Both the position numbers and the translations under genes were made by a program. Below, one piece after another: positions 14,504-31,966 of a stretch of DNA of 32,000 nucleotides; the stretch's first letter is position 1; every line of letters begins with the position of its first letter. Under the pieces are notes generated by a model. It was given only the letters and a program-made list of their open reading frames with translations. It made no database searches and was not told where the DNA came from. Source of the stretch: Pelorhabdus rhamnosifermentans (GTDB lineage: Bacteria; Bacillota; Negativicutes; UMGS1260); the NCBI RefSeq assembly GCF_018835585.1, contig NZ_JAHGVE010000006.1, positions 71,825 to 103,824 of the forward strand, in the 5' to 3' direction.

Positions 14504-14794
14504 TTAGATCATTAAGACCCCCTCCGGATCATATCCCGTCTTAGCACCAAAATGCTCTACACGATTTTTCCAGCTGTTACCGAGAAAATAATAACGTAAA
14601 CTATCTGTTTCCGGATCAACAATGCTTTCTAAACAGTGTTTTAATTCTGCAAATTGTGTTGGATCAACTAAGCATTCAAACACCGAGTTTTGCACTCGCT
14701 GACCATAATTGACACATTGCTTAGCTACTTTCCGTAGACGGCTTTTCCCTAAAGGCGTTATCACATTCACATCGTAGGTAATCAAAACCATCAT
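14504..14794 (-). CDS. cas2: CRISPR-associated endoribonuclease Cas2
   Basis: 96 aa with N-terminus MMVLITYDV (Cas2 beta1 with catalytic Asp). GAGGTG RBS is present. It is the last cas gene before the leader. Confidence 0.9.
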   Translation of the reverse strand: MMVLITYDVNVITPLGKSRLRKVAKQCVNYGQRVQNSVFECLVDPTQFAELKHCLESIVDPETDSLRYYFLGNSWKNRVEHFGAKTGYDPEGVLMI

Positions 14795-14804
14795 AGTTCA
14801 CACC

Positions 14805-15835
14805 TCATTTCCAGAAAAATGGCGGATAATCTTCCAAATCTCCTCGCATATGCCTAGCTAATAACATAGCCTGAACATATGGTACTAGACCTAAAGGAAT
14901 TTTTTTCTCCAAATAGGGATGGATGATTTCCTCTTGTTTTCTTTTTTGCCAAGCAGTCAATACTTCCTTACGTGTATCATCATCCATAACTACAGCACCA
15001 TTTTCTTTTTTTATAAATCCTTTAGCAGAAATCTGGTTGCGGTTAATCAAAGTCACTGCCAATCTATCTGCAAAATGAGGTCTCAATTCTTCCATGACAT
15101 CCAGCGCAAGACTAGGTCGTCCGTGTCGCTCCCGATGCAAAAATCCAACCTGCGGATCTAATCCAATGCTTTCTAAAGCGGCAACAACCTCATGTGCCAG
15201 CAGTGTATATAAAAAAGAAAGTGCGCATTAATATAATCAGTAGGTGGACGACGATTTCGATCATCCATGTGAAAATCCTCTTTTTGATTAAGTATTAACT
15301 GATTGAAATTCGAAAAATAAATTCGTGCTGCTTCTCCTTCAATACCACGTATTTCATCACCATTTTCTGCTCTTTCTAAGCGTTTTGGCATGTTTCCCAA
15401 CCATTGCAGCGCAGTTTGTAACACTTCATTATCAACAACTTCCGGATGATCCCGTAAAACGCGATGCAAAACTGCTCGACTATTGATAATTTTTGCTGCA
15501 ATAAACCGCCGGGACAAACGGGCAGATGTGTCCACATCATCGGACCAACGATATTGTGTACGTCTCAGCAAAACATTACCAGAAATATTGCCTGTTACAC
15601 GCCCCATAAATTTACCATAGGCAGTTAAAAATGAAAGAGCTACACCACGTTCACTACACAGGTACATTAATTTCGGACTGGCACCTGCAAAACCGAAACA
15701 AATAATTCCCTCTAAATTATGTACAGGAACACGAAACTTCACTTCATCGTTAACTTTAATCAACACATTTTCGCCATCACAAGCTAAATAAGAATCAGGC
15801 ATAGTTACATAGAGTGTATTTAAAAGTCGTCTCAA
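14805..15835 (-). pseudogene. cas1: cas1 (type I-C) split by a -1-nt frameshift at about 15222-15227
   Basis: The N-terminal ORF (15173-15835) has a TTG start overlapping the cas4 stop and reads MRRLLNTLYVT...NRRPPTDYINA before running into out-of-frame sequence. The other frame opens right at the junction (a TAA at 15228-15230 closes it upstream). It reads ALSFLYTLLAHEVVAALESIGLDPQVGFLHRERHGRPSLALDVMEELRP... through to the stop at 14805. Together the two parts total about 343 aa, a normal Cas1 length. Confidence 0.85.
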
Positions 15836-16521
15836 GAATCATCTACCTCCACACTGCACATGCGTGCCAAATAAGCCTTTACAGAATGACCATGCAATGT
15901 CCATTCCGGCTGACATTGTTCCACAAGAGAACATTGTGAACAATGCCTTCCTTTTTGCGCCTTGGGAGTCTTACCATCTTGGATAAGCTGATGCATTCTG
16001 AGGGCAAGTTCTACCGTGTGCTTTCGTAGCGTCTCATCCAATGTAATAGGTTCGCGATGTTTGGTTTGTCCATAAAAAAGGAACCCTTCATCAATGGATA
16101 TTTGCAACATTTCCTCTAGCGCTATGGCTTGCGCACACAACTGCACAGCATCTCGATCATCTTTTTTGGGGCGTCCGCGTTTATATTCAACAGGAGCAGG
16201 CCTCCACCATCCCTCGCGTCCTTCTAGTTCACACGTTTTTCCTGCAACGTAATTAGGACTTTGATAAAATTCTACAACGTCAGCGATACCTCGCAGTCCC
16301 AGTTGTTGAGAAACAAGTGGCATCGCTCGAACAATCCGCACCTTCTTCCGACTTTCATCTGCAAATGGATCATCTGTTCTTTCGTGAAGATGTTGTCCTT
16401 CTACAGTACGAACATTTTCTGACCAAACTTGTTCAATATGAATAAGTGCCCACTGACGTTCACAAAAAGCCATATGTTGAATTCCCGATAGCATAAGAAA
16501 ATCTTCTTCTGAATAGGACAT
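15832..16521 (-). CDS. cas4: CRISPR-associated RecB-like exonuclease Cas4
   Basis: N-terminal Cys (HMAFCERQW), RecB motifs (IADVVEF, VEYKRG) and a C-terminal Cys cluster (CSQCSLVEQC) for the Fe-S centre. The ATG at 16521 lies 1 nt after the cas7 stop. The track's upstream extension overlaps cas7 and is unlikely to be real. Confidence 0.9.
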   Translation of the reverse strand: MSYSEEDFLMLSGIQHMAFCERQWALIHIEQVWSENVRTVEGQHLHERTDDPFADESRKKVRIVRAMPLVSQQLGLRGIADVVEFYQSPNYVAGKTCELEGREGWWRPAPVEYKRGRPKKDDRDAVQLCAQAIALEEMLQISIDEGFLFYGQTKHREPITLDETLRKHTVELALRMHQLIQDGKTPKAQKGRHCSQCSLVEQCQPEWTLHGHSVKAYLARMCSVEVDDS

Positions 16522-16522
16522 G

Positions 16523-17394
16523 TTATTCACGCTCAATAATCGTAACGCCGTCCGACTTTTCCTTATTATTGACAATAATGCTATAGTCCGTAAATGCACG
16601 TGGCGGCTTTTCTTCATCATTGCGTTTTACAGTAACTAAGTCAAATAATTTATGTGCTGGAGCGTTTCCTAATGCTGTATCATGTTTAAAAACAACTAAT
16701 TTTCTGCTGGACATTTTACCACGAGCTGCCGAATGATCATTTTCAAACATATTTATAAGCGCCTGCCAAAAAATTTCAAGATCTTCTTCAGAAAATCCAG
16801 TCTTTTGTGCCAATGCTGCTGAAATATAGCCTTCAGCACGATAAACGGCGTAAGGTACAATGTGTTTACGTCCCATCGTACGTTCCTTGTCAGCATCCTT
16901 TTTATTTGCCACAGCCATGCGAGTAATCGTTATTTCTTGTGGAACAATGGGGTCCAAACTTTTAGCAAACCCAAACTGAATAGGTCCACGCACTTGCCCG
17001 CAATTTACTTCCATTGTCATAACTGCACCAAACGCTCGAATATCATAGAATCGATCACACATATATTGGGTTATCTTCTTAGCCTGATCAGGATCTTTGG
17101 GAAGTTTTTTAGACTCCGGCTTAATCTTTAATTCATTATAGGCAAGCTCATTGATATCATTTAGAACAGCCTTTTCACGCACATAAATATCAAAAGGACT
17201 ACTTCCGCCCTTTGCAAGTTCTACATAATTTCGAACTTTACGTTTGAGACAAACATCAGAAACAAGTCCCTGACTTGTTTCTGGATCAATACGTGGCATA
17301 TTTCCCGCATCTGGATCACCATTGGGGTTCCCATTTTCCACTTCAAAAAAAAGTACAAATTCATAACGATTATTCAATACATCACTCACGTTAA

Positions 17395-17398
<4 letters not shown>
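16523..17398 (-). CDS. cas7: Type I-C Cascade backbone subunit Cas7 (Csd2)
   Basis: 291 aa with ENGNPNGDPDAGNMPRIDPET, a hallmark Csd2/Cas7 motif. ATGA overlap with the cas8c stop. Confidence 0.9.
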
Positions 17399-19853
<2,455 letters not shown>

Positions 19854-22112
19854 CTAAAACATCAATATATCCGTCGATACCGTCACTTCCTTTGCATCTT
19901 TTAAGCCAAACTTCGAATCATAGAAACTGGGATCTGTCATAATTTTTATAAAATCGCCAATCGATTTGATTACACCTTCCTTCTCTAAAGCAGCCAACTC
20001 ATATTGATAAATTTGAACTACATAAGGTTGAAGACGTCGTACCATGCTAGCCGGAAAAGGATGATATTCAGTTTCTTCTATCAGTTGCTCAGCACGACTA
20101 TCCCAGGATACAACAACGGGAATTGTCTCACTGTCAATAAGCTGAAAGTTCTTGGCAATCGTTGCAAAAGGGAATGCCAAATCATCAGCTCCAGCTTGAA
20201 TCATGGGGAGTATTCCCTGCATATCAAGATTACCCCGTTCAAAATCAAATAATTGCCGAAAGTAATCCTCAATAGCCTCCAGCGATAGTAATTCACCATC
20301 TAATTCCTGTAGACGCCGCGCTGTACTGCGAGTCAAACCCGCAACAGAAGCAAACCTCCCTTTTTTAGGCATTCCATGCGGTTCAGGATCAAACACAATG
20401 ACCTGACCTGTCGAACGTCGTCCCTCACGATTACATCGTCCAGCTGCTTGAGCAATAGAATCAATTCCTGCCGCCGCACGATAAACAACAGGAAAATCAA
20501 CATCCACTCCCGCTTCAATAAGCTGAGTCGATACTACCCGGCAAACTTCACCAGCTTTAAGTGCCCGGCGTATCTCTGTTAAAACTAATTTACGATGTGC
20601 GGAACACATGCGCGCCGACAAATGGTAAGCTCCTTGCTGACTTTTTTCATATAACCGATTAAATAACAGTCGGGCATGTCGACGAGTATTGACAATTGTA
20701 AGCACCTGTGTCTGTTCAGCCATTGCTGCAGCTAAATTCTCATCAGACATTTCACTGCCATATTGAACAGTTACACGCTTAAAAATCTTTTGAAGATCTG
20801 CAGGGTCCTCCATAATTTCTACCGGCTCTAAATTTCCAGGAAGCAAATGATTAATAGCCGGTTGTGTCGCCGTACACAATACCACAGTCGCACCATAATT
20901 TAAAACTAATTCTGCCAATGCCCATAAGCAAGGCTTCATATATTCAAGTGGCATCATCTGGGCCTCATCTAATATAATCACACTATTAGCGATGTTATGC
21001 AGTTTTCGGCACCGCGAACCTTTATTGGCATAGAGAGATTCAAAAAATTGCACAGCTGTAGTAACAACAACAGGCATGTCCCAGTTTTCTGAAGCTAAGC
21101 GATGGCTTTTCTCATATGCATCCCAATCATCAAATGATCCTTCAGGATACTCAAAGTTGCTATGATGCTCAAGAACAACGTTATCATGCAACTCTTCGTC
21201 TTCTAGCGCCTCTCGAAAAATCTCAGCATTCTGTTCAATAATACCGGTATAGGGAATCACATAAATGACACGATCCCTATGATATTTAACCGCATGTTTC
21301 ATACCAAAAGCTAGCGATGAATAGGTTTTTCCCCCTCCAGTCGGTACCGTTAAAGTAAAAAGGCCGGGCTTAACATCTGCCATTTCCAAACATCTTGCCT
21401 GAATGGCCTGCCTTGCAGTATTAATAACTGAAGGATTTTTACGATTATGTTCGGCTAAAGACTCCAACTTCTTTTCTAGCCGTCCAAAAAGTGTTCTCAT
21501 CGATATAGGATTGGGCCGATTCATATACTTTTTCACATTCATAAATTGTTCGGTATCTAAATAATCCGCATCGACTAAGCAAGAATATAGCATACGAATA
21601 CAAAAAGAAAAGCTGAAAGCCGACATAGTAGAATCCCTTGCATGAGGCATACCTGCAAAATCCTGATTAGTTAAATTTGGTATTACAATTTCATTGCAAA
21701 ATACATGATAATCAGGAATATCCGTATTAACAAGCCGTTCCGGAAGATTTCTCAAAGCACCTTTATTTCCATCGGGTAATCCACCATGATGCCCAGCAAT
21801 AGTAAATGCCAAGGCACGGCCAATCTTATTACCAAATCTTCGATACACTTCCTGCGCCCCAGCTGTAGTATGATCGACTTTTCCAGATGAACCTTCCAGC
21901 CGTTTTTGAAATTTCTTTGAGTATTTACCAATATCATGTGACAAGCCTATGATTTCTCCCAATTTCCCTGCCCCAAATTTCGCTGCCCGCTCTTCTGTCA
22001 TTTGAGAAACTGCATCAAGATGACTTTTTAACAATTGCCATTCCTCTTTAGGTAAAACTTTTTTCGCCATCAGATCTTCTTTGGTGTGTCCGTAATATAT
22101 CACTATAATCAT
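19854..22112 (-). CDS. cas3: Cas3 HD nuclease / SF2 helicase
   Basis: 752 aa. HD-domain motifs LSHDIGKYS and IAGHHGG. Helicase motif I is TVPTGGGKT, motif II is ILDEAQMM, and later motifs are CTATQP, VSTQLIEAGVD and QAAGRCNREG. Confidence 0.9.
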   Translation of the reverse strand: MIIVIYYGHTKEDLMAKKVLPKEEWQLLKSHLDAVSQMTEERAAKFGAGKLGEIIGLSHDIGKYSKKFQKRLEGSSGKVDHTTAGAQEVYRRFGNKIGRALAFTIAGHHGGLPDGNKGALRNLPERLVNTDIPDYHVFCNEIVIPNLTNQDFAGMPHARDSTMSAFSFSFCIRMLYSCLVDADYLDTEQFMNVKKYMNRPNPISMRTLFGRLEKKLESLAEHNRKNPSVINTARQAIQARCLEMADVKPGLFTLTVPTGGGKTYSSLAFGMKHAVKYHRDRVIYVIPYTGIIEQNAEIFREALEDEELHDNVVLEHHSNFEYPEGSFDDWDAYEKSHRLASENWDMPVVVTTAVQFFESLYANKGSRCRKLHNIANSVIILDEAQMMPLEYMKPCLWALAELVLNYGATVVLCTATQPAINHLLPGNLEPVEIMEDPADLQKIFKRVTVQYGSEMSDENLAAAMAEQTQVLTIVNTRRHARLLFNRLYEKSQQGAYHLSARMCSAHRKLVLTEIRRALKAGEVCRVVSTQLIEAGVDVDFPVVYRAAAGIDSIAQAAGRCNREGRRSTGQVIVFDPEPHGMPKKGRFASVAGLTRSTARRLQELDGELLSLEAIEDYFRQLFDFERGNLDMQGILPMIQAGADDLAFPFATIAKNFQLIDSETIPVVVSWDSRAEQLIEETEYHPFPASMVRRLQPYVVQIYQYELAALEKEGVIKSIGDFIKIMTDPSFYDSKFGLKDAKEVTVSTDILMF

Positions 22113-22450: not shown

Positions 22451-22500
22451 TTTATAAAGAAGAAAGAGAACTGACACGCTGCTGTCAGTCCTCTTTCTTC
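22451..22500 (-). terminator. Rho-independent terminator at the end of the four-gene jet-like operon (overlaps the jetD stop codon)
   Basis: On the minus strand, GAAGAAAGAGGACTGACA-gcagcg-TGTCAGTTCTCTTTCTTC forms an 18-bp stem (one G-U pair) followed by TTTATAAA. It separates this operon from the cas3 promoter region. Confidence 0.6.
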
Positions 22501-23822
22501 TTTTGATTAATTTTTTGCATATCCTCACTCAACGATTCCACCAAAGCCTCCTGGTAACCTGCTAACTTCAATCGACGCATCTCTGCAACAACCTCCGCAA
22601 GTTCCGGATGGTAAACCGAATCCAGTTTTTTAATCCGCCTATCGTCAAGTTTTACCTGAGACAAACTAATAGCATAATCTGCCAGTCCGTAATGCCAAAA
22701 ATGCGCTTGATCCGGATAGCGTTCAACCAGTTTTTGAGCGATTAGTAAGCCTTCGGGATCAAAATCGCCGGAATACCGAACGGAGCAGCCTGCAGCAGCC
22801 AACCGTTCCACCGCCGCCCAGGAGGCCAGCTTAAACTGGCCGTGTGTACAAAGCAGCGGCGGCAAAAATCCCGTCTGTTGATAAAATAAATCCAGCAACG
22901 ACGAAAACACGCCGGAATTCTCTACAATAAAAACAGGACCACCGCACTTGAGCGCACCGTACAGATAGCGGCACTTCAACAACTCACGCAACGGCATATT
23001 GAGCATCGAACCATTCTCCCAGGCCTGCCTGAGATAAGGAAGCTCCTGCTTCTTATCCGCATCAGTAGCTGCCGCCAGTCCGGCACAAGTAATAAAATTC
23101 AAGACATCGTCTCGTAACAGTCCAAACGCATAGAGCCGCTCATTTTCTTCCTCTACGGCCGACTTATCATCTTGCGCCTGCCTACCTGAAAGTACTTTTA
23201 GCGCATCAAGCAGCCATTTCCCCGCTGGGGTCTGACTGTCAAAAACATGTGGATTACCGCAAATCCGCCGTGCAAATACCGACAGTCTTTCGTATTGAAC
23301 AGGCAGTTCCGTTAATGCACGCAGTACCAAATGAACATTTTCCTTAAAATGATGAACGTCATGCTCTAACGCCAAATGAACCGCCCGTGTACCAACCTGT
23401 CTGTCCCTCACCGCCTCCAGCCAAACCGGACAAAGCCCCTTTCGATATTGACTGCATAAATCCTGCCAGAATTGCCGCCGGAACTGAGCAGCCGCCTCCG
23501 CTTGTTCCGCCTTGCTGACCAACGAAGCACCACATAGATTTCCAAGTAACTCCAAAATATCAACACCTGAAAATCTTGTCTTTTCCAAAGCCTGAACAAA
23601 TTGTTCAAACCCAATCGACGCTTTTTGTCCAGTCTGATAGGAACGGCGAAAAAAAGCCGTAAAGGCACCTGCCTCTTCATGGCTCAAATTTGTTAAGACA
23701 ACCGTACCCCCCAGACGCCCGATACTGCAATATTTTTTTGCCAAAAGCGGGACAAGCCGGGAAAAACCAGCTTCCTGCCGGAAATAGCGAATAGCTTCGG
23801 CCAGTGCATCAGCCATCTTCAT
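22485..23822 (-). CDS. jetD: JetD-like protein (Wadjet type II; DUF2399/TIGR02679-like) with a C-terminal Toprim-type nuclease domain
   Basis: 445 aa. The C-terminal third carries GPVFIVENSGVF (Toprim acidic Glu) and, about 60 aa later, VRYSGDFDPEGLLIAQ (DxD). The start ATG overlaps the jetC end by 14 nt. The family assignment comes from motifs, size and gene order, not from a search. Confidence 0.7.
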   Translation of the reverse strand: MKMADALAEAIRYFRQEAGFSRLVPLLAKKYCSIGRLGGTVVLTNLSHEEAGAFTAFFRRSYQTGQKASIGFEQFVQALEKTRFSGVDILELLGNLCGASLVSKAEQAEAAAQFRRQFWQDLCSQYRKGLCPVWLEAVRDRQVGTRAVHLALEHDVHHFKENVHLVLRALTELPVQYERLSVFARRICGNPHVFDSQTPAGKWLLDALKVLSGRQAQDDKSAVEEENERLYAFGLLRDDVLNFITCAGLAAATDADKKQELPYLRQAWENGSMLNMPLRELLKCRYLYGALKCGGPVFIVENSGVFSSLLDLFYQQTGFLPPLLCTHGQFKLASWAAVERLAAAGCSVRYSGDFDPEGLLIAQKLVERYPDQAHFWHYGLADYAISLSQVKLDDRRIKKLDSVYHPELAEVVAEMRRLKLAGYQEALVESLSEDMQKINQKKKED

Positions 23823-26800
23823 TTACCGCCAAACTACGCGTTTTTCCATCCCACAAATAAGGAACAAGTGTAACAAACGGAGCATTTTTCGGACGAACAA
23901 GTTCATAAATAGCCAGCCGCGACACTGTGTCATAATCGCCCCACAGTGACTGAGAATTCATAATATAGTTAAAGCCGAGTTTTTCCACCAGATCAAACAT
24001 TTCTTTGATGTTATTTTCATCGACCCCGGCAAAAGCCTCATCCAAAGAAATGATATACGGTGCATCGTCTCTGGCTCCTTGATATTGGGAATACGCTGCC
24101 GAAAACAGTGGAACATACATAGCCATCGCTTTTTCGCCGCCGCTAAATTTGCCGAATGCACTATTGGTCAGTTCCTTTTTAGGTGAATCGCCACGCCGAT
24201 AATACAGAGTAAAAGTAAACCAGCGCCGAAAATCCAAAACTTCCTGAATAGCCCTTTGAAAAGTTACAACTTGCCCCACAGCGGCCGCCTTAGCTTGATC
24301 AATGCGGGAACGGAAATGTGCAATAAGCTTATTCATATCCTCTTCTTTAAGCAGCCGATGATCACTGCGCAATAATTCGACAAGTTCCTCCGTATCCAGC
24401 TGTTCATCGTTATCCGCTGTCAGCGGCCGCCAACGGAGAGAAAAACTCAAATTGCTTGATGTATCCAGCTTCGACATCAAATCATTCATCTTACCGGCCC
24501 ATAACTCAGCATTTTGAATCCGCTTACTGATCACGCGACCAATGCTGTTCAAAATAACTTCTTCATAAAGCTCCCGGTCCTGTTGAGATTGAATCAGCTT
24601 CTGCATTTCAATCTGCTTGTCCATCAGACTCAAGGCAACGGCAGGTGCTGCTTTACGGCTGTCATATTCCAGCAAAATACGTTGGCGGCGCATGTTCTGC
24701 CGTAACGAAGCGACGTAAAGCGCTAAATTCTCATCTTCCACACCCGTCAGTTTTTCAGGAAGAACCGTATCGGAAAAAATCTCATCCAGTGTCAGCCGGT
24801 ATTCCATAAGTACCGACAACTCACGGTAAAAACTTTCACTGATCCTAGTAGTGGCTTTGTCCCTATCATCATTTTTCAGCACAGAGCCATGCTGCTTAAG
24901 CACTTCCGCCGCCGTAAGCGTTTCACCGCCGTCAATCAAATGAAGCTGCGCTTCCTGATCAAAGGCCTGCTGCCAAACGGTAACGATTTCAGTAAAAAAT
25001 TCACACTCGGCAGCAAGCTGAGAGGCCGTAACCGCAAGCTGCTCGGCCGCCAGTTCTGTGCGCGCACGTTCTTCTGCCAGCTGCTTAATCTCTGTCGGCA
25101 GCTCCCCCAACCGCCTGATCACAAAATTACTGCGTTCCATAATTTTTTCAGCACCAAGATCAGCCAAGCGCTGCGTAAAATTTTCAAGTTGCAGTTGCTT
25201 GGTTTTGACGTTTCCTTCAAGAACCAGTTGTTCTCCTCTTAAACGGTCCACATCCGCCTGGTTTTCAGCCAGACGGATTTTACTCTGATCCAAATTTTTG
25301 CAGTCAGCCTGAAACCGTTGATGCGTAAGTTCCAGTTGATGTAAAAATCTCTCATACTCCCGCAGACTCGCCAAAGCGGCCTCGAATAATTCTTCCTGAA
25401 GGAGCAGTGAAATATCCCCGGCCTGCTGCTTAATCAGGGCGGACAAAGAACGACTCTTGTCAACAGCAGCGCGATAACGCGCATCTTTCTTATGCAAATC
25501 TTCGTCACGGACCTGACTGTTCTGCCTTTTCTCCCTCAGTTGATCATAAACTGCCAAAACCCCGTCTGGTGCCGGTAGCCCAGCCCGAGCGGCCTGCAAA
25601 TGGTCGATGGCATCCTGTACAAAACGCCTGTCAGTGGCAAGTTGGCTCAAAGTACAGTCATAAGCAGCCAGTTCTTCCTCTAACCGTTCAATTTCCCGCA
25701 ACCGGTACTGATGTCGGGCTTCAAAACCAATAAATTTAGCCTCATCCTGCAAAGGAGCCCGGCCTGTCACAAGACCACTACAATAAGACCCGTAAGAAAC
25801 AGATAAAACAGGTACACTACCTGCATCTGATAAATAATTGATAGTATCATCAATTAAAATACTGCGTAACACTTCATCAACATCACCAGCCGTCACTCCC
25901 GCCGAACCGGATAAAGCGGGTTCCAAATAATCAGCCAGCGTAGCGGAAAGTATGGCCGGCTCAGGGTGAATCACCTGATCGTACACGTCTTTGTCCAGAC
26001 TCTTCCAGGCCGAATGAGGCACAATCAAAGCATCAAGCAGTCCCATTTCCGTCAGAGCAGCTTCAATTCGCTCACGTTGCTTGGGCTGTACATGATGCTG
26101 AAATTCCACAGCCGCATAAAAAGGTACCGCCGGAATATGATCCTCAGCAAGTTTTTGCCGCGCTTCCATAACAGCAGCCGGACGGAATGGTTCAGGGTCT
26201 TTTTTACCCTTCCAGTCGGCAAGTTCCGCTTGCAGCACCTGTTTTTCAGACTCCGCCTGCTCCATTTTCTGCTGCAACCGGTGGCTTTCCGTAAGATGCT
26301 GCCCATACTGACGCTGATAGGCAACATCAACAGACTGGAGGACATCCTGCCAGGAAGATTCTTCCGGCAAATTCTGCAAGGCTAAGGTGGCACTGCGGAT
26401 TTCCTCCGCTTCCATGGGTAACACCGTCTGTTCTTCTTTCACCCATTGATAAAACCGCCCCAGTAATTCCTCTTTGGCTGTAAACAGTGCTGTTTCAGCC
26501 TGGCGGACAGCCTCACGGGCTTCATCAAAAGCCTGCCTGGCTTCATCCGCTTCTTTCCCGGCAAATTCCTGCTGTTTTTTTGCAGCTGTCAGATTCCGCA
26601 GTTGGCCTAAGATACGGTTGAGTTTTTGCTGATAACCAGTTAGTTCCTGCTTCCACAGTTTAAAAGAATATTTTTGTCCGTAAGATCGTTCAAATTCCCG
26701 CACAGCAGACGCATGACCCTGATAAGTCCCTTCCGATGCCAGTCCGCCAAGATCCTCCATGCACTCCAGCATCTCATTCTCGGCAGCATCCACAGCCTGT

Positions 26801-27957
26801 TCGGCCGCCGCCATTTGCTGCTTTTCACGCTGTTCACTCCGTTGTTTCTCCTGCAGCCGTTGTCCATTTTGAGTCAGCGAATGATTCAAAGCCCTTACCT
26901 CTTCCGCGACTGACTGCTTTTGTTTCTCCATTTTGAACACATCATGATCCTTGAGCTCTGTTTCTTCCTGACGCAAAACAGCTTCCAGCCGCTCCAGCGC
27001 AGTAAGATCTTCAGCAAGCTCATGACATCGGCTGACTTTTTCCTGCTGTTCTTTCAAACAAGTACGACGGGACTGTTCGGAACGATTGAACCGCTGCGAG
27101 GCCCGGGTGAGTTCATCGGCCTTCTGAACCAAAATAAACAGATTATAAGCATCGTACTGGCGGCTCAGCCGTTGCAAAGCACTGCGGTCCCGCTCCAATT
27201 GATCGATTTGCTGTTTTGTCTGCTCAATGTTTTCAATAACATCCGATAAGGGTCTCAGTTCTTCTTCCGTTAATGTCGGCAACGAATCCGTCAATATTTC
27301 ATGAATGACACTGGGTTTAAAATCCTTGGACAACTTCGGACTGCGCAGTTGAATCAAAAGTTCCATCAAATCTTTATAAGCATCCAATGAAGAAAAGCCA
27401 AAAACATATTTATTAACGAGATTCATATACTCACGCTGACTGCGAACAACCTGACCGCCTGTACCAATCAGCCGCTCCAACTCCGGACGGGTTAAAGGGA
27501 TCTTTTCTTCCTTGCCGTCCACCGCGCTATATTCTGTTTTATACAGCAAAAGATCCCGATTCACCCGCCGGCTGTCTGTCACGATAAAGCCCCAAAAATC
27601 CAGTGCTGATCCGCGTTTAGCCCGCAGACCAATACCTGTTGTCACATACTGATCGCTATTTTGCCGCTTATATTCCAAATAAAGATAGCCTGTCCGCTCC
27701 TCGCGGTCCACCACATCCCGTTCTCCCAATAAATAATCCTCCATCCGCCTGTCACGTGAGCCGAAAGGGTCCAGGCGGTTAGCGGAAATTTTGCCGTCAA
27801 GCAGCACCGTAACCAGACTCTGCATGGTTACCGATTTACCCGAACCATTTAAACCGCGCAATAACAATTTGCCAGCGGAAAATTGGAATTCTCCCTGATC
27901 GTAGTACCAAAAATTAAACAACCCGGCCCGATTGATTTGCCATTTATTCATTCCCAT
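23809..27957 (-). CDS. jetC: JetC-like SMC/Rad50-family ATPase (Wadjet type II; TIGR02680-like), about 1382 aa
   Basis: N-terminal Walker A LRGLNGSGKSVTMQS (GLNGSGKS = nt 27832-27855). A central region of roughly 900-1000 aa is rich in E/Q/L/R/A heptad-like coiled coil. The C-terminus has FGKFSGGEKAMAMYVPLF (signature-like) and APYIISLDEAFAGVDENN (Walker B / D-loop). I chose the ATG at 27957 (GGAGTGG 6 nt upstream). The track's 38 extra codons overlap jetB. Confidence 0.8.
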   Translation of the reverse strand: MGMNKWQINRAGLFNFWYYDQGEFQFSAGKLLLRGLNGSGKSVTMQSLVTVLLDGKISANRLDPFGSRDRRMEDYLLGERDVVDREERTGYLYLEYKRQNSDQYVTTGIGLRAKRGSALDFWGFIVTDSRRVNRDLLLYKTEYSAVDGKEEKIPLTRPELERLIGTGGQVVRSQREYMNLVNKYVFGFSSLDAYKDLMELLIQLRSPKLSKDFKPSVIHEILTDSLPTLTEEELRPLSDVIENIEQTKQQIDQLERDRSALQRLSRQYDAYNLFILVQKADELTRASQRFNRSEQSRRTCLKEQQEKVSRCHELAEDLTALERLEAVLRQEETELKDHDVFKMEKQKQSVAEEVRALNHSLTQNGQRLQEKQRSEQREKQQMAAAEQAVDAAENEMLECMEDLGGLASEGTYQGHASAVREFERSYGQKYSFKLWKQELTGYQQKLNRILGQLRNLTAAKKQQEFAGKEADEARQAFDEAREAVRQAETALFTAKEELLGRFYQWVKEEQTVLPMEAEEIRSATLALQNLPEESSWQDVLQSVDVAYQRQYGQHLTESHRLQQKMEQAESEKQVLQAELADWKGKKDPEPFRPAAVMEARQKLAEDHIPAVPFYAAVEFQHHVQPKQRERIEAALTEMGLLDALIVPHSAWKSLDKDVYDQVIHPEPAILSATLADYLEPALSGSAGVTAGDVDEVLRSILIDDTINYLSDAGSVPVLSVSYGSYCSGLVTGRAPLQDEAKFIGFEARHQYRLREIERLEEELAAYDCTLSQLATDRRFVQDAIDHLQAARAGLPAPDGVLAVYDQLREKRQNSQVRDEDLHKKDARYRAAVDKSRSLSALIKQQAGDISLLLQEELFEAALASLREYERFLHQLELTHQRFQADCKNLDQSKIRLAENQADVDRLRGEQLVLEGNVKTKQLQLENFTQRLADLGAEKIMERSNFVIRRLGELPTEIKQLAEERARTELAAEQLAVTASQLAAECEFFTEIVTVWQQAFDQEAQLHLIDGGETLTAAEVLKQHGSVLKNDDRDKATTRISESFYRELSVLMEYRLTLDEIFSDTVLPEKLTGVEDENLALYVASLRQNMRRQRILLEYDSRKAAPAVALSLMDKQIEMQKLIQSQQDRELYEEVILNSIGRVISKRIQNAELWAGKMNDLMSKLDTSSNLSFSLRWRPLTADNDEQLDTEELVELLRSDHRLLKEEDMNKLIAHFRSRIDQAKAAAVGQVVTFQRAIQEVLDFRRWFTFTLYYRRGDSPKKELTNSAFGKFSGGEKAMAMYVPLFSAAYSQYQGARDDAPYIISLDEAFAGVDENNIKEMFDLVEKLGFNYIMNSQSLWGDYDTVSRLAIYELVRPKNAPFVTLVPYLWDGKTRSLAVNEDG

Positions 27958-29155
27958 GCCCGTCCACTCCCTGTCGATAATCTTTTGGATATTGCCCCAC
28001 GGCCCGTGCCAGAGAAGGACGCAAACAAACCATGCCTGTTTCTTCCTCAATATGAGCAAACTTCCACTCAACGAGTTCCTGAAGAACTTGCTGTGATAAT
28101 TTAGCTAACGACCATGTGCGCACTTCCTTGCTCCAGCCATGATCGGTCTGTTCTTTGCAAAGAAGCAGCAGCCGCTCAAATTCAGCAGGCGTCAAAATCA
28201 CCCGGCCTTCCGTTGTCGGCACATTCACGCCATCTTCTACCGTGGCCCGAACATAGCGGGCAAAGTGAAGCAGCACATCAGATACAGCCCGCTGATCAGG
28301 AAACACGGTCGCAAAAACCCGTTTTTCCGGTAAGGTAAGCATGGCCACCTGTTCATATAATTCAAACGCAAACAACGTATGAGCAGCAATATCATCGAGC
28401 AGACGATTGCGCCGATTGCGCAAATACAAAAAGTCGTCCTCCTGAGCCTCCCCCTTATCATAAGAAGGCGTCAATAACAATTGACGATAAATACGATTAC
28501 GGCGCGTCCGGCCGGTTTTCTGATTCTCATCATCGGCCCGTTCGGCTTGAATCAGTTCATTCTTATCGGCATACTGAAATAAATCCTTGGGATAAGAACG
28601 CAGAAAATAGCGGGACAGACTCGGCACCTCAAACAATACTTCCTGTTCCTGACTGCCGGAAAAACCGCCTATTTCTCCGTCCACCCGGCTCAAGATAGCC
28701 TGATCACAGGCAAAACTCAAGACACGAACAAGAGTCCGGCGCCATTCATAACTTTCCCAGTTGATTTCCGAGTCGTCCGTCTCATCGTTAACCGGATACA
28801 AGACAGGTAACGCCTCACACAAATCGCTCAGCAGAAACTGTTCATCAATACTTTTATTTTCAAGATACGCCAGCAGACAACACAGCAAGGCATAGTCCCG
28901 GGGTTTTTCCAATTCGGAAAAGCCCATCCAGCTTTCGGCTTGATCCGGAATTTTTTCAAGTTTGGCAAAATCCTTATGAACCAAGAGATAAAAACCGCAT
29001 TTATCGAAAAAGTAATTGCGCAGCATCTGTTCCCGCTCACGAATTTGCTGATACAGTTCAGGCTCCCTGTCCCGAATCACCCAATATTTTTCAAGCAATT
29101 GAGCCGCTGTTTCCCGATCCGTATCGTCAAAAGTTAATATTTTTTCCTGTTGCAT
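27944..29155 (-). CDS. jetB: JetB-like protein (Wadjet type II; DUF2398/TIGR02678-like; MksE/KITE-equivalent position)
   Basis: 403 aa. GGAGGGG RBS is present, with a 14-nt gap after jetA and a 14-nt overlap with the jetC start. The assignment rests on size and position in the cassette; I can name no catalytic motif. Confidence 0.55.
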   Translation of the reverse strand: MQQEKILTFDDTDRETAAQLLEKYWVIRDREPELYQQIREREQMLRNYFFDKCGFYLLVHKDFAKLEKIPDQAESWMGFSELEKPRDYALLCCLLAYLENKSIDEQFLLSDLCEALPVLYPVNDETDDSEINWESYEWRRTLVRVLSFACDQAILSRVDGEIGGFSGSQEQEVLFEVPSLSRYFLRSYPKDLFQYADKNELIQAERADDENQKTGRTRRNRIYRQLLLTPSYDKGEAQEDDFLYLRNRRNRLLDDIAAHTLFAFELYEQVAMLTLPEKRVFATVFPDQRAVSDVLLHFARYVRATVEDGVNVPTTEGRVILTPAEFERLLLLCKEQTDHGWSKEVRTWSLAKLSQQVLQELVEWKFAHIEEETGMVCLRPSLARAVGQYPKDYRQGVDGHGNE

Positions 29156-29169
29156 TACGTACCCCTCCG

Positions 29170-30642
29170 CTAGGATAATACTTCAATAACAAAATCAGGC
29201 AACGTCAGCCGGCCATCTAAACACGTCAAGGTAATCGAAGCATCACTTTGCCTGACCAGACGAATTTGCCGGCCCTGTTCCGTCTTCGCGGTGTGATTTT
29301 GACTAGCCATACATTTACCGATCCACGCCAACAAAGTTTTCCGAATAAACGGTTCCTGCACAGGCAACTGAGCGATGACAATCCGGTTGTTCTCAATGAT
29401 GGAGTCAATCAGTTCCTGCTCCCGGCGCCGTTCAGCCAAGTACTGCTCCAAAGCAGCAGTTTTCTCCGCCGCGCGTCCTATAACAGCCCCTGGACGCCGT
29501 TTCTCCCGATAAGTATTTGTACGCGGTTTCACCGTAATCTTCATAGGAGCCACTTGCCAGACCGACTGGTACATATTTTCACTTTCCGCCTGATCGGCAA
29601 AAACATGCCGGACCTGAGACAAGCCAAACAGCATTGCCGACAGGGCATGCGCCTCAGCAATGCTGTTCTCTTGTGCAAACCAGGTGGCAAGATGAAGATA
29701 ATCCTTATAACGATTGCGTACATTTTGCTGCTTCTCACCAATTCGCTGTACAAAGCGGGTAATGCGGCGAATCGTTTCTGTTGTTTCATTTTCCAATGAT
29801 GTCAGTTCACTGGCCCGGCCCGGAATACCCAAAAACCAGTCCCGCAAGCTTTGCCACTGGTCCTGATACTTGAGTACAAATTCCTCATGACTCAACGTTT
29901 CCTCCAGTCGCGGAATCGACAGCTGATAACTGGCAAGCTCCTGTGCGGCCCGCTCAAAAACCTCCGTTTCAAAATTACGCAAAATGCTTTCAATATTATA
30001 AGAAACCTGCTGCAAACCTAAAATGAATTTACGCAAATAATCGGCAAAGGAATCTTTATAAACCAGAAAAGCCTCGGTCATCATCCGTTCTTCTACTTTC
30101 TCACTTTTCAAATGGGCTAAATAATCAGAAGCACTTTGTACGATCTTTTTAAAATACGAATACACATCTTCCCAGGCCTGATTCAGTTCTGATCCCTGTC
30201 CGGTTTTAGCCTCCTCCTGAAATCGTGACAGGGACTGAAACAATCTGTCGAACATCGTCGTTTCCAGTGATCCGCCAAAAGAATTACCTATTTCATAAAG
30301 ATGCTCAACCATGCGCTCAATTTCCACTGTATAAGGCGTACACTGATAACGGAATTTTTTTCGTTTAAAATCTTCTATTGTCATCACGCGGCCTGTTTCC
30401 TGACGTGGAATAAGATTTTTCCATTCCACAAGCTGCTTCAAATCCTGCTGCAACTCATCTTCCGTATAATCGGCAAAAACTTCATCCTGTCTCAAATACT
30501 GATAAACATCTTCAGGGAAGAGGTATTGACGCATTTTTTCATGCTGAACATAAAAATAGTGCAAAATTCCCCGGTAGCGCCGCACATTTCCAGCTGATAA
30601 ATAAGTTGTTTCTGGAATGGCTTTTAAACATTTATCATCCAT
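29170..30642 (-). CDS. jetA: JetA-like protein (Wadjet type II; DUF2397/TIGR02677-like; MksF/kleisin-equivalent position)
   Basis: 490 aa. The track start at 30645 is a TTG. The adjacent ATG (30642) lies 7 nt after AAGGAG. It is the first gene of the cassette, and the assignment rests on size and position. Confidence 0.55.
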   Translation of the reverse strand: MDDKCLKAIPETTYLSAGNVRRYRGILHYFYVQHEKMRQYLFPEDVYQYLRQDEVFADYTEDELQQDLKQLVEWKNLIPRQETGRVMTIEDFKRKKFRYQCTPYTVEIERMVEHLYEIGNSFGGSLETTMFDRLFQSLSRFQEEAKTGQGSELNQAWEDVYSYFKKIVQSASDYLAHLKSEKVEERMMTEAFLVYKDSFADYLRKFILGLQQVSYNIESILRNFETEVFERAAQELASYQLSIPRLEETLSHEEFVLKYQDQWQSLRDWFLGIPGRASELTSLENETTETIRRITRFVQRIGEKQQNVRNRYKDYLHLATWFAQENSIAEAHALSAMLFGLSQVRHVFADQAESENMYQSVWQVAPMKITVKPRTNTYREKRRPGAVIGRAAEKTAALEQYLAERRREQELIDSIIENNRIVIAQLPVQEPFIRKTLLAWIGKCMASQNHTAKTEQGRQIRLVRQSDASITLTCLDGRLTLPDFVIEVLS

Positions 30643-30869
30643 CAAAGTTCTCCTTGTTCTGTATCATCCTTAATTTCAGCAGCTATTTTACAATCAGCAT
30701 AGACAAATAAAATTCCTTATAATCAAATAAAACAGTCAATCTTGACTTATTTCCCGATTTTTCGCCTAAATTCCTCTTTCAAGAATCATAAATTGAAAAA
30801 TCCCATTGACTGTCCACTCTACGGATGCACTCTTTTCCCAAGGCTAATCCAGTATGCAGCGCTGTATTT

Positions 30870-30966
30870 TTATCCACATATCCACAATGCTGTTTTACTT
30901 GGCATTGTGGATAATGTGGATAAGCCTGTTTATAACCCAATGTTTCGTACCTATAGTTGTGGATAA
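30870..30966. promoter_or_regulatory. Cluster of five DnaA boxes (four perfect TTATCCACA, one ATATCCACA)
   Basis: TTATCCACA at 30870-30878 and ATATCCACA at 30878-30886 lie in one orientation. TGTGGATAA at 30906-30914, 30915-30923 and 30958-30966 lie in the other. The first four form a near-perfect 21-bp inverted repeat around an 11-nt spacer. Confidence 0.6.
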
Positions 30967-31051
30967 CCTTGTGATTAATGCCCTAATCGCCCATGCAACT
31001 GCGATCATCAGGCGGGAGAGGGAATTCAGGGAAAAGGAGGACGAACCATAC

Positions 31052-31099
31052 AAAAAAAGCTGCCTCAAACAGGTGTTAAAAAACCTATTTCGAGACAGC
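31052..31099 (-). terminator. Rho-independent terminator of the tRNA/rnpB operon
   Basis: On the minus strand, GCTGTCTCgAAATAGGT-ttttta-ACACCTGTTTGAGGCAGC forms a long stem with G-U pairs only in this orientation, followed by T7. It lies about 30 nt downstream of tRNA-Gly. Confidence 0.65.
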
Positions 31100-31130
31100 C
31101 TCTTTACGATTTGGTTTGCCGTTAATTTTA

Positions 31131-31205
31131 TGGAGCGGAAAACGAGATTCGAACTCGCGACCCTCGCCTTGGCAAGGCGATGCTCTACCACTGAGCTACT
31201 TCCGC
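31131..31205 (-). tRNA. tRNA-Gly (anticodon GCC), CCA encoded
   Basis: The reverse complement is GCGGAAGTAGCTCAGTGGTAGAGCATCGCCTTGCCAAGGCGAGGGTCGCGAGTTCGAATCTCGTTTTCCGCTCCA. It folds by hand into a full cloverleaf with anticodon loop TTGCCAA. Confidence 0.9.
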
Positions 31206-31282
31206 ATGACTATATTATGACGAACCTGATCAGATTTGGATCAACGATCTTCGCCGTGACAGGACACGTTATCTAGAAATTT

Positions 31283-31358
<76 letters not shown>

Positions 31359-31372
31359 GTTTATAAGAAAGT

Positions 31373-31449
31373 TGGTGGCCCCGGCAGGATTCGAACCTGC
31401 GACCCTTTGATTCGAAGTCAAACGCTCTATCCAGCTGAGCTACGGAGTC
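31373..31449 (-). tRNA. tRNA-Arg (anticodon TCG), CCA encoded; acceptor stem has an A2-C71 mismatch
   Basis: The reverse complement is GACTCCGTAGCTCAGCTGGATAGAGCGTTTGACTTCGAATCAAAGGGTCGCAGGTTCGAATCCTGCCGGGGCCACCA. The D, anticodon (loop CTTCGAA) and T arms are canonical. The acceptor stem GACTCCG/CGGGGCC has one mismatch and one G-U pair. Confidence 0.75.
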
Positions 31450-31461
31450 TCTATATCAAAA

Positions 31462-31813
31462 CAGCCTTCTTTAGAAACCATAAGCCAGTTTCTGTTTTAG
31501 AAAATTATCTATCTAACGCTAATACAGCGTTCTTCCTTTTGGTTCGTATTCCCTACAGGAAGCTCCCCTACCGAAATTTGGGTTTCTGCCTCGTGGAGTT
31601 TACCGCTTTTCACTAGGTTGTCACCAACCTACTCACTCTCTGTGCACTTTATGATTACTTTCAACTACGTGAGTCGATTTCATCGTCGTCAGAGCTAAGC
31701 TCTGCCCCATCTTGCGATGGGCACGAACATTACGGCCATCACAGGTCGTGGCAGTCTGGACTTTCCTCAATACTGCCTAACGCAGTACCGCAATTTTCCG
31801 TTTCTAAAGCTGA
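31462..31813 (-). ncRNA. rnpB: RNase P RNA (rnpB), bacterial type A; ends approximate
   Basis: The minus strand carries the universal P4 elements GAGGAAAGTCCAGAC (5' side; plus-strand GGACTTTCCTC at about 31759-31769) and ACAGAAACTGGCTTAT (3' side). It also carries GCGGTAAACTCCAC and CCCAAATTTCGGTAGGGG, which resemble E. coli M1 RNA. P1 pairing is CTTTAGAAAC / GTTTCTAAAG. Length is about 350 nt. Confidence 0.8.
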
Positions 31814-31891
31814 CTGGATTTTTACCGGAGCCCAAAATGCCGTCTCTTTGTATGGACATAGCTAAGATAACATTTCATTTCAGGCAAACAT

Positions 31892-31966
31892 TGGAGGCGA
31901 CACCCAGATTCGAACTAGGGAATTAAGGTCTTGCGAACCTTAGCCTTACCACTTGGCCATATCGCC
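31892..31966 (-). tRNA. tRNA-Cys (anticodon GCA), CCA encoded; anticodon loop reads TCGCAAG (C at position 33)
   Basis: The reverse complement is GGCGATATGGCCAAGTGGTAAGGCTAAGGTTCGCAAGACCTTAATTCCCTAGTTCGAATCTGGGTGTCGCCTCCA. The overall sequence is very similar to Firmicute tRNA-Cys, with a 3-bp D stem and an A13-A22-type mismatch. The anticodon stem is AAGGT/ACCTT. Confidence 0.75.

What the first reader, a model, noticed from the sequence alone, without database searches (positions are those of the whole stretch)
22485..30642. Four-gene SMC-ATPase / Toprim-nuclease operon: Wadjet type II-like JetABCD cassette
Four co-directional, translationally coupled genes encode proteins of 490, 403, about 1382 and 445 aa. 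There is a 14-nt gap between genes 1 and 2 and a 14-nt overlap at each of the other two junctions. The sequence shows the following directly. Gene 3 has an N-terminal Walker A (GLNGSGKS), a very long E/Q/L/R-rich coiled-coil middle, and a C-terminal SGGEK signature-like motif plus an hhhhDE Walker B (YIISLDEAFAGVD). This is SMC/Rad50/MukB-like architecture. Gene 4 ends in a Toprim-like pair of acidic motifs (FIVENSG ... SGDFDPEG). From established knowledge, this order and size pattern matches the TIGR02677/02678/02680/02679 (DUF2397/DUF2398/SbcC-like/DUF2399) cassette, which Doron et al. 2018 classified as Wadjet type II. It is related to MksBEFG. Wadjet senses small circular DNA by loop extrusion and cleaves it with JetD. 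Structural and mechanistic work has concentrated on type I, so type II and any representative from a diderm Firmicute are essentially uncharacterised. The family is therefore described, but this instance is the most interesting and least understood system in the window.
Basis: partly seen in the sequence, partly recalled or inferred. Interest (0 to 1): 0.85.

Follow-up and report, generated by a model that had tools for sequence, protein, structure and literature searches.

The report
Ordinary type II Wadjet anti-plasmid operon
This is an intact four-gene Wadjet type II (JetABCD) plasmid-defence operon in the chromosome of a Sporomusaceae bacterium; it is a textbook member of a family whose type II form was already reconstituted and solved by cryo-EM in 2025, so it is real but ordinary.

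Summary
Four intact, co-directional minus-strand genes of 490, 403, 1382 and 445 aa lie at 22485-30642, with a 14-nt gap and two 14-nt overlaps. The Wadjet type II interpretation is also confirmed.

- **Family models:** all four proteins exceed the curated cut-offs of TIGR02677/02678/02680/02679 and Pfam DUF2397, DUF2398, SbcC_Walker_B and DUF3323+DUF2399. Their best PADLOC models are JetA2/B2/C2/D2.
- **Solved structure:** JetA, JetB and JetC match the cryo-EM structure of Neobacillus vireti type II JetABC (9QE0/9QE1) end to end, at E = 1e-136, 5e-88 and 1e-278.
- **JetD:** it has no sequence match in the PDB. A high-confidence AlphaFold2 model (pLDDT 94) hits only MksG, JetD-I and topoisomerase VI-A. 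The Toprim acidic residues E301, D353 and D355 are invariant in 82 homologs.
- **JetC:** the ATPase motifs are invariant.
- **Host:** a Negativicute, because a flanking protein is 100% identical to one from Sporomusaceae bacterium BoRhaA.

nvJET-II was shown in 2025 to cleave circular DNA in an ATP-, JetABCD- and Mn2+-dependent way. The family is known and this instance is unremarkable, so interest is low.

The parts
29170..30642 (-). jetA (type II kleisin subunit, 490 aa). An AGGAG Shine-Dalgarno sequence at 30654-30650 lies 7 nt upstream of the ATG.
   Evidence: Pfam DUF2397 at 3.9e-144. TIGR02677 scores 400.7 bits against a cut-off of 165.85. PADLOC JetA2 at 5.6e-187. PDB 9qe0_E JetA at 1.4e-136, covering residues 3-484 of the query and 6-491 of 500 in the chain. 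The SD sequence was read.
27944..29155 (-). jetB (type II KITE subunit, 403 aa). It has the long form expected of a tandem KITE. A GGAGG sequence lies upstream of the ATG.
   Evidence: Pfam DUF2398 at 5.8e-93. TIGR02678 scores 261.6 bits against a cut-off of 124.65. PADLOC JetB2 at 4.6e-133, plus a weak hit of residues 19-109 to the type I MukE-like JetB1 model (0.0019). PDB 9qe0_D JetB at 4.6e-88 as one stretch, residues 5-396 against 5-385 of 389, which spans both KITE lobes.
23809..27957 (-). jetC (SMC-family ABC ATPase, 1382 aa). Walker A G35-S42, Q46, signature S1272-K1276, Walker B/D-loop L1305-D1313. Coiled-coil arms at about 250-600 and 760-1130, hinge at about 600-760.
   Evidence: TIGR02680 scores 886.8 bits against a cut-off of 462.85, covering profile positions 1-1355 of 1356. 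Pfam SbcC_Walker_B at 2.1e-24. PADLOC JetC2 at 1537 bits. PDB 9qe0_A JetC at 1.1e-278, residues 4-1380 against 5-1360. The motifs are invariant in 10 JetC-II sequences. Composition profile.
22485..23822 (-). jetD (nuclease subunit, 445 aa, or 443 aa if it starts at 23816). An N-terminal helical DUF3323 (CAP-like) domain is followed by a C-terminal DUF2399 Toprim domain with E301, D353, D355 and E357.
   Evidence: Pfam DUF3323 at 1.1e-45 and DUF2399 at 5e-31. TIGR02679 scores 235.5 bits against a cut-off of 196. PADLOC JetD2 at 1.4e-137. AlphaFold2 pLDDT is 93.9 for the whole protein and 94.0 for the domain. Foldseek finds only MksG 8b7f, JetD 7til and Top6A 1d3y/2zbk/9o7o at the top. Invariant residues.
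22459..22500 (-). An 18-bp perfect hairpin spanning the last codons and the stop codon of jetD, followed by a U-rich stretch. It is the probable terminator of the operon.
   Evidence: RNA fold gives -29 kcal/mol with z = -7.6; none of 200 shuffles folds as well. Sequence.
31052..31105 (-). A boundary element rather than part of the system. It is a strong hairpin with a U7 tail just downstream of tRNA-Gly. As the probable terminator of the tRNA/rnpB cluster, it implies that jetABCD has its own promoter somewhere in 30646-31050.
   Evidence: RNA fold gives -34.7 kcal/mol with z = -6.6. tRNA positions.

Best explanation
This is a complete, apparently functional Wadjet type II (JetABCD-II) anti-plasmid system in the chromosome of a Sporomusaceae bacterium (Negativicutes).

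**Mechanism.** The mechanism is inferred by homology to the reconstituted N. vireti system.
- Two JetC SMC ATPases, one JetA kleisin and one tandem-KITE JetB form a motor unit.
- Two motor units dimerise through the JetA N-terminus.
- The complex loads on DNA and extrudes loops using ATP.
- On a small closed circle (up to a few tens of kb) extrusion runs to completion and the motors stall. This converts the complex to a cleavage-competent state, which docks and activates the JetD dimer.
- The JetD Toprim site (E301, D353, D355) then makes a sequence-independent double-strand cut. The cut is probably Mn2+-dependent, as in nvJET-II.
- The linearised plasmid is degraded by host exonucleases. The large chromosome and linear DNA are spared.

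**Shown here:** gene order, integrity, family membership, conserved catalytic motifs, the Toprim fold of JetD and the host lineage.

**Inferred:** every biochemical step.
For: - **Operon:** there are four intact collinear genes with short overlaps.
- **Family membership:** all four exceed the curated TIGRFAM and Pfam cut-offs, and the PADLOC type II models are the best hits.
- **Solved homologs:** JetA, JetB and JetC match PDB 9QE0/9QE1 end to end.
- **Conserved sites:** the ATPase motifs are invariant across 10 JetC-II sequences. The Toprim residues E301/D353/D355/E357 are invariant across 82 JetD-II sequences.
- **JetD fold:** the JetD model has pLDDT 94, and its only significant structural neighbours are MksG, JetD-I and Top6A. 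The Toprim domain gives TMq 0.48-0.57.
- **Conservation:** the same four-gene operon occurs in three metagenomic relatives, with JetC and JetB 74% identical and JetD 64-67% identical.
- **Transcription unit:** terminator-like hairpins bracket the unit.
[quoted passage not shown] It needs JetABC, JetD, ATP and Mn2+, and cuts at random sites.
Against: - No functional data exist for this operon or for any Negativicutes Wadjet.
- No convincing sigma-70-type promoter was found upstream; the scan did no better than shuffled sequence.
- JetC is only about 36-39% identical to Bacillales type II JetC. Quantitative properties such as metal requirement, size limit and JetD docking may therefore differ from the N. 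vireti system.
- Two nearby genes, cas1 and an SMR gene, are split. Some decay or sequencing error exists in the neighbourhood, although none is seen in the jet genes.
Confidence: 0.9

Rival explanations
1. The operon is a decaying or silent relic. It is recognisable as Wadjet II but is no longer expressed or active in this host.
For: The adjacent type I-C cas1 is split into two ORFs, and an SMR gene at 13101-13404 is also split. No clear promoter was detected. GC3 of the jet genes (0.46-0.47) differs from that of the neighbours (0.27-0.39), which suggests foreign origin.
Against: All 8.2 kb of coding sequence is intact. Every invariant catalytic residue is retained. Shine-Dalgarno sequences and coupled junctions are preserved. 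Relatives at 64-74% identity keep the whole operon, which indicates purifying selection.
Confidence: 0.05
2. The complex has been domesticated for chromosome organisation, like MksBEF or MukBEF, and is not primarily a defence system.
For: The nvJET-II resting state and hinge resemble those of MukBEF. The authors speculate that MukBEF/MksBEF arose from Wadjet by loss of the nuclease.
Against: The nuclease gene jetD is present, intact and translationally coupled to jetC, and its Toprim residues are invariant. The operon sits beside a CRISPR-Cas locus in a defence-island-like context. Domesticated systems lack JetD.
Confidence: 0.03
3. It is a different SMC/Toprim defence system that only looks like type II. 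Candidates are Wadjet type I or III, Lamassu, Gabija/OLD-type systems, or SbcCD/Rad50.
For: JetC shows weak partial hits to JetC1 models and to SMC_N. JetD shows weak hits to JetD3 models.
Against: Type II models score 440-1540 bits over their full length, while type I/III models score 13-48 bits over fragments. All four TIGRFAM hypothetical-equivalog cut-offs are exceeded. No Lamassu, Gabija or OLD models hit.
Confidence: 0.01

Closest known systems
Neobacillus vireti LMG 21834 Wadjet type II (nvJET-II; PDB 9QE0/9QE1; Roisne-Hamelin, Liu & Gruber, bioRxiv 10.1101/2025.03.10.642339)
   Same: It has the same four-gene order and similar subunit sizes: JetA 490 vs 500 aa, JetB 403 vs 389 aa, JetC 1382 vs 1371 aa. 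JetA, JetB and JetC are homologous end to end, at E = 1e-136, 5e-88 and 1e-278. The JetB match spans both KITE lobes. The JetD Pfam/TIGRFAM architecture is of the same type.
   Different: JetC is only about 36-39% identical to Bacillales type II JetC. The host is a diderm Negativicute, not a monoderm Bacillus relative. The Mn2+ requirement, the roughly 50-kb size limit, the channel-less hinge and the elbow position are assumed, not tested. nvJetD is not in the PDB, so JetD could not be compared directly.
Wadjet type I (E. coli GF4-3 ecJET-I, 8BFN/8Q72; P. aeruginosa PA14 JetABCD, JetD 7TIL)
   Same: It shares the SMC-kleisin-KITE motor plus a Toprim nuclease, and the extrusion-cleavage logic against circular DNA. 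The JetD model matches 7TIL structurally (E = 1.5e-4 for the full length; Toprim domain TMq 0.48).
   Different: There is no detectable sequence similarity of JetD to JetD-I in the PDB. Type I HMMs hit only fragments. Type I has a short JetB that forms a homodimer, a doughnut-shaped hinge, a V-shaped resting state and Mg2+-supported cleavage. JetD is not interchangeable between the types.
Corynebacterium glutamicum MksBEFG (MksG nuclease, PDB 8B7F)
   Same: MksG is the best Foldseek hit for full-length JetD (E = 3.9e-6, prob 1.00) and gives TMq 0.57 for the Toprim domain. It is also a plasmid-defence SMC system with a Top6A-like nuclease.
   Different: The aligned residues are only 12-13% identical. 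It belongs to the Mks/type I-like lineage, with different JetA and JetB families.
Topoisomerase VI A subunit / Spo11 (1D3Y, 2ZBK, 9O7O)
   Same: The fold of the JetD C-terminal Toprim domain is shared (TMq 0.51-0.57, prob 1.00), as is the acidic E...DxD metal site.
   Different: JetD acts as a hydrolytic nuclease activated by an SMC motor, not as a tyrosine-linked topoisomerase. According to the literature, the catalytic Tyr of the CAP domain is absent in JetD-I. This was not examined here.
MukBEF / MksBEF condensins
   Same: They share the SMC-kleisin-KITE architecture. The type II hinge and resting-state geometry resemble MukBEF according to the nvJET-II study.
   Different: The condensins have no nuclease subunit, they act in chromosome organisation, and their KITE is a homodimer of short subunits.

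Membership tests
Wadjet type II (JetABCD-II) | Four adjacent co-directional genes in the order jetA-jetB-jetC-jetD | tested here: met
   Minus-strand ORFs at 30642..22485 with a 14-nt gap and two 14-nt overlaps. Relatives L011 and L012 have the same order.
Wadjet type II (JetABCD-II) | JetA belongs to DUF2397 / TIGR02677 | tested here: met
   PF09660 scores 481.5 bits (cut-off 28.5) and TIGR02677 scores 400.7 bits (cut-off 165.85). PADLOC JetA2 at 5.6e-187. 9qe0_E at 1.4e-136.
Wadjet type II (JetABCD-II) | JetB belongs to DUF2398 / TIGR02678 and has the long (about 390-400 aa) tandem-KITE form | tested here: met
   PF09661 scores 312.3 bits and TIGR02678 scores 261.6 bits (cut-off 124.65). PADLOC JetB2 at 4.6e-133. 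The protein is 403 aa, and a single alignment to nvJetB covers 5-385 of 389, which includes both lobes. Internal duplication is not detectable by profile-profile comparison (E = 0.42). This agrees with the reported strong divergence of the two lobes.
Wadjet type II (JetABCD-II) | JetC belongs to TIGR02680: a long SMC-like ABC ATPase with intact Walker A, signature and Walker B motifs | tested here: met
   TIGR02680 scores 886.8 bits (cut-off 462.85) over the full length. The motifs are invariant in 10 homologs. 9qe0_A at 1.1e-278.
Wadjet type II (JetABCD-II) | JetD has DUF3323 + DUF2399 / TIGR02679 with a C-terminal Toprim fold and conserved E and DxD residues | tested here: met
   Pfam and TIGRFAM scores are above cut-off. 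The AlphaFold2 domain model has pLDDT 94 and pTM 0.89. All ten best Foldseek hits are Top6A, MksG or JetD, nine of them with TMq 0.48-0.57. E301, D353 and D355 are invariant in 82 sequences.
Wadjet type II (JetABCD-II) | [quoted passage not shown] | not tested
   This is inferred only from end-to-end homology to nvJetC and from the composition profile, which shows arms, a hinge and a break at about 395-450.
Wadjet type II (JetABCD-II) | ATP-, JetABC- and JetD-dependent cleavage of circular but not linear DNA, and plasmid restriction in vivo | not testable with these tools
   This has been shown for nvJET-II only.
Wadjet type I | JetB of the DUF4194 (MukE-like, about 240 aa) family, JetC of the DUF3584 type I family, JetD of the DUF3322/DUF2220 family | tested here: not met
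   Only fragmentary, weak PADLOC hits were found: JetB1 at 0.0019, JetC1 at 1e-13 or weaker over the head segments only, and no JetD1 hit. JetD and its profile find no JetD-I in PDB sequences.
Wadjet type III | JetD3 (DUF2239/DUF2220) and the type III JetA/B/C models | tested here: not met
   JetD3 models hit only residues 294-372, at 5e-7 and 2e-6. No JetA3, JetB3 or JetC3 hits were found.
MukBEF / MksBEF condensin | A three-gene SMC-kleisin-KITE system without a nuclease | tested here: not met
   An intact jetD is translationally coupled to jetC.

The most novel reading that the evidence does not exclude
The five-box DnaA-box cluster lies at 30870-30966. This is inside the only stretch that can hold the jet promoter, between the tRNA-Gly terminator and jetA. 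The cluster might place this Wadjet-II operon under DnaA control. That would couple expression of a plasmid-restriction motor to the replication-initiation state of the host, a kind of regulation not described for any Wadjet system. A more modest alternative is that this Negativicutes JetD-II docks on JetABC or uses metal ions differently from the N. vireti system.
Probability: 0.06. Interest if true: 0.45.

Novelty: already known. Interest (0 to 1): 0.13.

Why it matters
It matters little beyond annotation. The locus can be labelled confidently as a Wadjet type II anti-plasmid system. This has a practical consequence: Sporomusaceae strains that carry it will probably resist transformation with small circular plasmids. 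Deleting jetABCD, or using large or linear constructs, may therefore help genetic work, as was shown for the native Wadjet system of Clostridium cellulovorans (PMC12287153). It also records a type II system in a diderm Firmicute, a group for which I found no Wadjet literature. The sequence gives no sign that it works differently from the characterised N. vireti system.

Tried and rejected
- **Source contig:** exact-sequence look-ups of the window's JetD and of the 100%-identical DhaK (P0121) found no contig on record (one search failed for lack of capacity). The source contig could therefore not be fetched.
- **Representative genomes:** the single GTDB scan found only Bacillales operons at 32-39% JetC identity, not the source genome.
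- **Nearest relative:** the contig of the 99%-identical DhaK relative (L013) ends just past the MFS gene. It cannot show whether that strain carries the operon.
- **JetD against PDB sequences:** JetD and an 82-sequence JetD profile both gave nothing below E = 0.28. Only the fold comparison worked.
- **JetB halves:** profile-profile comparison to show the tandem-KITE duplication was not significant (E = 0.42), although the best local alignment is in a plausible register.
- **tRNA integration:** no duplicated tRNA-Gly 3' end and no long direct repeats flank the island, and no integrase was seen.
- **Structured RNA in the 488-nt leader:** there were only sub-threshold miRNA-model hits, caused by the inverted DnaA boxes.
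- **Promoter scan:** the number of sites found was no higher than in shuffled sequence.
- **DnaA boxes in relatives:** there are none upstream of jetA in L010-L012, so the cluster is not a conserved feature of the operon.
- **Strain name:** 'BoRhaA' is not in the taxonomy dump or in any paper held.
Full report
**Observation.** The region 22485-30642 holds four long ORFs on the minus strand. jetA is 30642..29170 (490 aa from the ATG; an AGGAG lies 7 nt upstream, and an in-frame TTG lies 3 nt further up). jetB is 29155..27944 (403 aa). jetC is 27957..23809 (1382 aa from the ATG; the ORF is open from a TTG at 28071). jetD is 23822..22485 (445 aa). The closest relatives use an 8-nt ATGnnTGA overlap at the C/D junction. 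The window's third jetD codon is an ATG that would give the same geometry, so JetD may be 443 aa. There are no internal stops.

**Family assignment.** The four products match Pfam DUF2397 (3.9e-144), DUF2398 (5.8e-93), SbcC_Walker_B (2.1e-24, with sub-threshold AAA_29 and SMC_N hits), and DUF3323 (1.1e-45) plus DUF2399 (5e-31). All four exceed the curated cut-offs of the NCBIfam hypothetical-equivalog models. TIGR02677 scores 400.7 bits (cut-off 165.85), TIGR02678 261.6 (124.65), TIGR02680 886.8 (462.85) and TIGR02679 235.5 (196), in each case over essentially the whole profile. In PADLOC the best models are JetA2, JetB2, JetC2 and JetD2, at 620, 442, 1537 and 457 bits over the full length. 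Type I and type III models hit only fragments at 13-48 bits.

**Relation to solved structures.**
- JetC matches PDB chain 9qe0_A ('JetC', 1371 aa) at 1.1e-278, over residues 4-1380 against 5-1360.
- JetA matches 9qe0_E at 1.4e-136.
- JetB matches 9qe0_D at 4.6e-88, in one alignment covering 5-385 of 389.
- These entries are the cryo-EM structures of the Neobacillus vireti type II JetABC complex (bioRxiv 10.1101/2025.03.10.642339).

That study reports a JetA1B1C2 motor unit that dimerises through the JetA N-terminus. [quoted passage not shown] Plasmid cleavage needs JetABC, JetD, ATP and Mn2+. It acts on circular or artificially circularised DNA but not on linear DNA, cuts at random positions, and fades in vivo for circles of 50 kb and beyond. 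The same system restricts plasmids when moved into B. subtilis. Type II is therefore no longer uncharacterised.

**JetD.** This is the one subunit with no solved relative by sequence. Neither the protein nor a profile of 82 homologs finds anything in the PDB below E = 0.28. I modelled it with AlphaFold2 on that alignment and obtained mean pLDDT 93.9. The nine best Foldseek PDB hits (all nine with E below 0.002) are C. glutamicum MksG (8b7f, 3.9e-6), topoisomerase VI-A (1d3y, 9o7o, 9o0g, 9o8p) and P. aeruginosa JetD (7til), all with probability 0.99-1.00. Whole-chain TM-scores are diluted by the two-domain architecture, so I also modelled residues 256-445 alone (pLDDT 94.0, pTM 0.89). Its ten best hits are again only Top6A, MksG and JetD, nine of them with TMq 0.48-0.57. 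In the 82-sequence alignment E301 (VENSG), D353, D355 and E357 (SGDFDPEG) are invariant. This is the E...DxD signature of Toprim domains, a point that rests on established knowledge.

**JetC details.** Walker A (G35-S42), Q46, the signature SGGEK (1272-1276) and LDEAFAGVD (1305-1313) are invariant in an alignment with nine other type II JetC proteins at 36-74% identity. Conservation is concentrated in the two head halves and in a central block at about 583-760. The intervening stretches are poorly conserved, almost free of Pro and Gly, and 57-71% E/Q/L/R/K/A, with a Pro/Gly-containing break at about 395-450. This is the expected SMC layout of head, arm, hinge, arm and head. I did not model the hinge or the elbow.

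**Context and host.**
- Upstream on the coding strand lie tRNA-Cys, RNase P RNA class B and tRNA-Arg/Val/Gly.
- A strong U7-tailed hairpin follows tRNA-Gly (-34.7 kcal/mol, z = -6.6). An 18-bp hairpin spans the jetD stop codon (-29 kcal/mol, z = -7.6). jetABCD therefore looks like a self-contained transcription unit.
- Downstream is a type I-C CRISPR-Cas locus with cas3, cas5, cas8c, cas7, cas4, cas1 and cas2, plus a 14-repeat array.
- GC3 of the jet genes (0.46-0.47) is higher than that of the cas genes (0.27-0.32) and of the other flanking genes (0.35-0.39). This suggests separate horizontal acquisition.
- The DhaK protein encoded at 1809-2804 is 100% identical to a protein of 'Sporomusaceae bacterium BoRhaA'. 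Its next relatives are other Sporomusaceae and Selenomonadales, a family in the class Negativicutes.
- An outer-membrane beta-barrel protein in the window and TonB-dependent receptor/ExbBD genes beside the operon in relatives fit a diderm host.
- The nearest database operons are metagenomic: JetC and JetB 74% identical, JetD 64-67% identical. They have the same gene order. Named Sporomusa JetD proteins are 43-46% identical in the multiple alignment (42-47% by BLASTP).
- I found no paper that links Wadjet with Negativicutes.

**Mechanism.** By homology I take this to be a working Wadjet-II. The JetA/JetB/JetC motor dimer would extrude DNA using ATP. Complete extrusion of a small circle would stall the motors and license the JetD dimer. 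The Toprim site would then cut the DNA without sequence preference, probably with Mn2+. Family membership, integrity and catalytic-site conservation are shown here, and all activity is inferred. The rivals are a silent relic, a domesticated condensin, or another SMC/Toprim system. Each is disfavoured by the intact ORFs, the retained nuclease and the subtype-specific HMM scores.

**Verdict.** The novelty claim is not supported, because this is an ordinary instance of a described and now biochemically and structurally characterised system, and PADLOC or DefenseFinder would call it automatically. Interest is low. Its only modest points of interest are its host lineage and an unexplained DnaA-box cluster in its upstream region.

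Noticed in passing
window 30870-30966: A cluster of five DnaA boxes lies within 97 bp, in both orientations: four perfect TTATCCACA and one with a single mismatch. It sits between the tRNA-Gly terminator and jetA, 225-325 nt upstream of the jetA ATG. Only one other perfect box occurs in the whole 32 kb. GC skew does not change sign anywhere in the window, so this is not obviously oriC. The cluster is absent upstream of jetA in relatives L010-L012. It might be a DnaA-box cluster of the B. subtilis DBC kind, or a regulatory site.
   Followed up: partly
window 14805-15835 (minus strand): The cas1 gene of the type I-C locus is split into two ORFs. ORF 15835..15173 matches Cas1 profile positions 1-191, and ORF 15140..14805 matches positions 219-283. 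This is either a frameshifted or interrupted pseudogene, which would disable spacer acquisition, or an assembly error.
   Followed up: partly
window 13101-13404 (plus strand): A small multidrug resistance (SMR) gene is also split. A 43-aa ORF matches profile positions 2-33 and a 60-aa ORF matches positions 55-93. This is a second broken gene within 2 kb of the broken cas1, which hints at local decay or indel errors in the assembly.
   Followed up: no
window 13460-14339 and 14504-22112: This is a complete-looking type I-C CRISPR-Cas locus lying directly downstream of jetD. It has cas3, cas5, cas8c/csd1, cas7, cas4, cas1 (split) and cas2, plus an array of 14 repeats of 32 nt (GTTTCAATCCACACGCCCGTGAGGGGCGTGAC) with 13 spacers. 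The two repeats furthest from the cas genes are degenerate. The spacers were not searched against phage or plasmid collections.
   Followed up: partly
window 31131-31966 (minus strand): An RNA gene cluster runs tRNA-Cys, RNase P RNA class B (218 bits), tRNA-Arg(TCG), tRNA-Val(TAC), tRNA-Gly(GCC), and ends in a strong intrinsic terminator at 31052-31105. The defence island (jet plus cas) starts right after it, but no att-like duplication of the tRNA-Gly 3' end was found.
   Followed up: yes
L010, L011, L012 (metagenomic relatives): In the closest relatives the jet operon is followed by a cobalamin/iron-type ABC importer, a TonB-dependent receptor, CbiZ, ExbB/ExbD/TonB and an RNase T-like exonuclease. 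In L010 the same type I-C cas genes then follow. In the window the transporter block is missing and cas3 directly follows jetD, while the RNase T-like gene (12305-12925) lies beyond the CRISPR array. The neighbourhood is thus related but rearranged.
   Followed up: partly
window 7636-8598 and 6440-7600 (minus strand): A small RelA/SpoT-domain protein (320 aa), possibly a small alarmone synthetase, lies next to a PucR-family regulator that carries a GGDEF-like domain. Neither is related to the finding.
   Followed up: no
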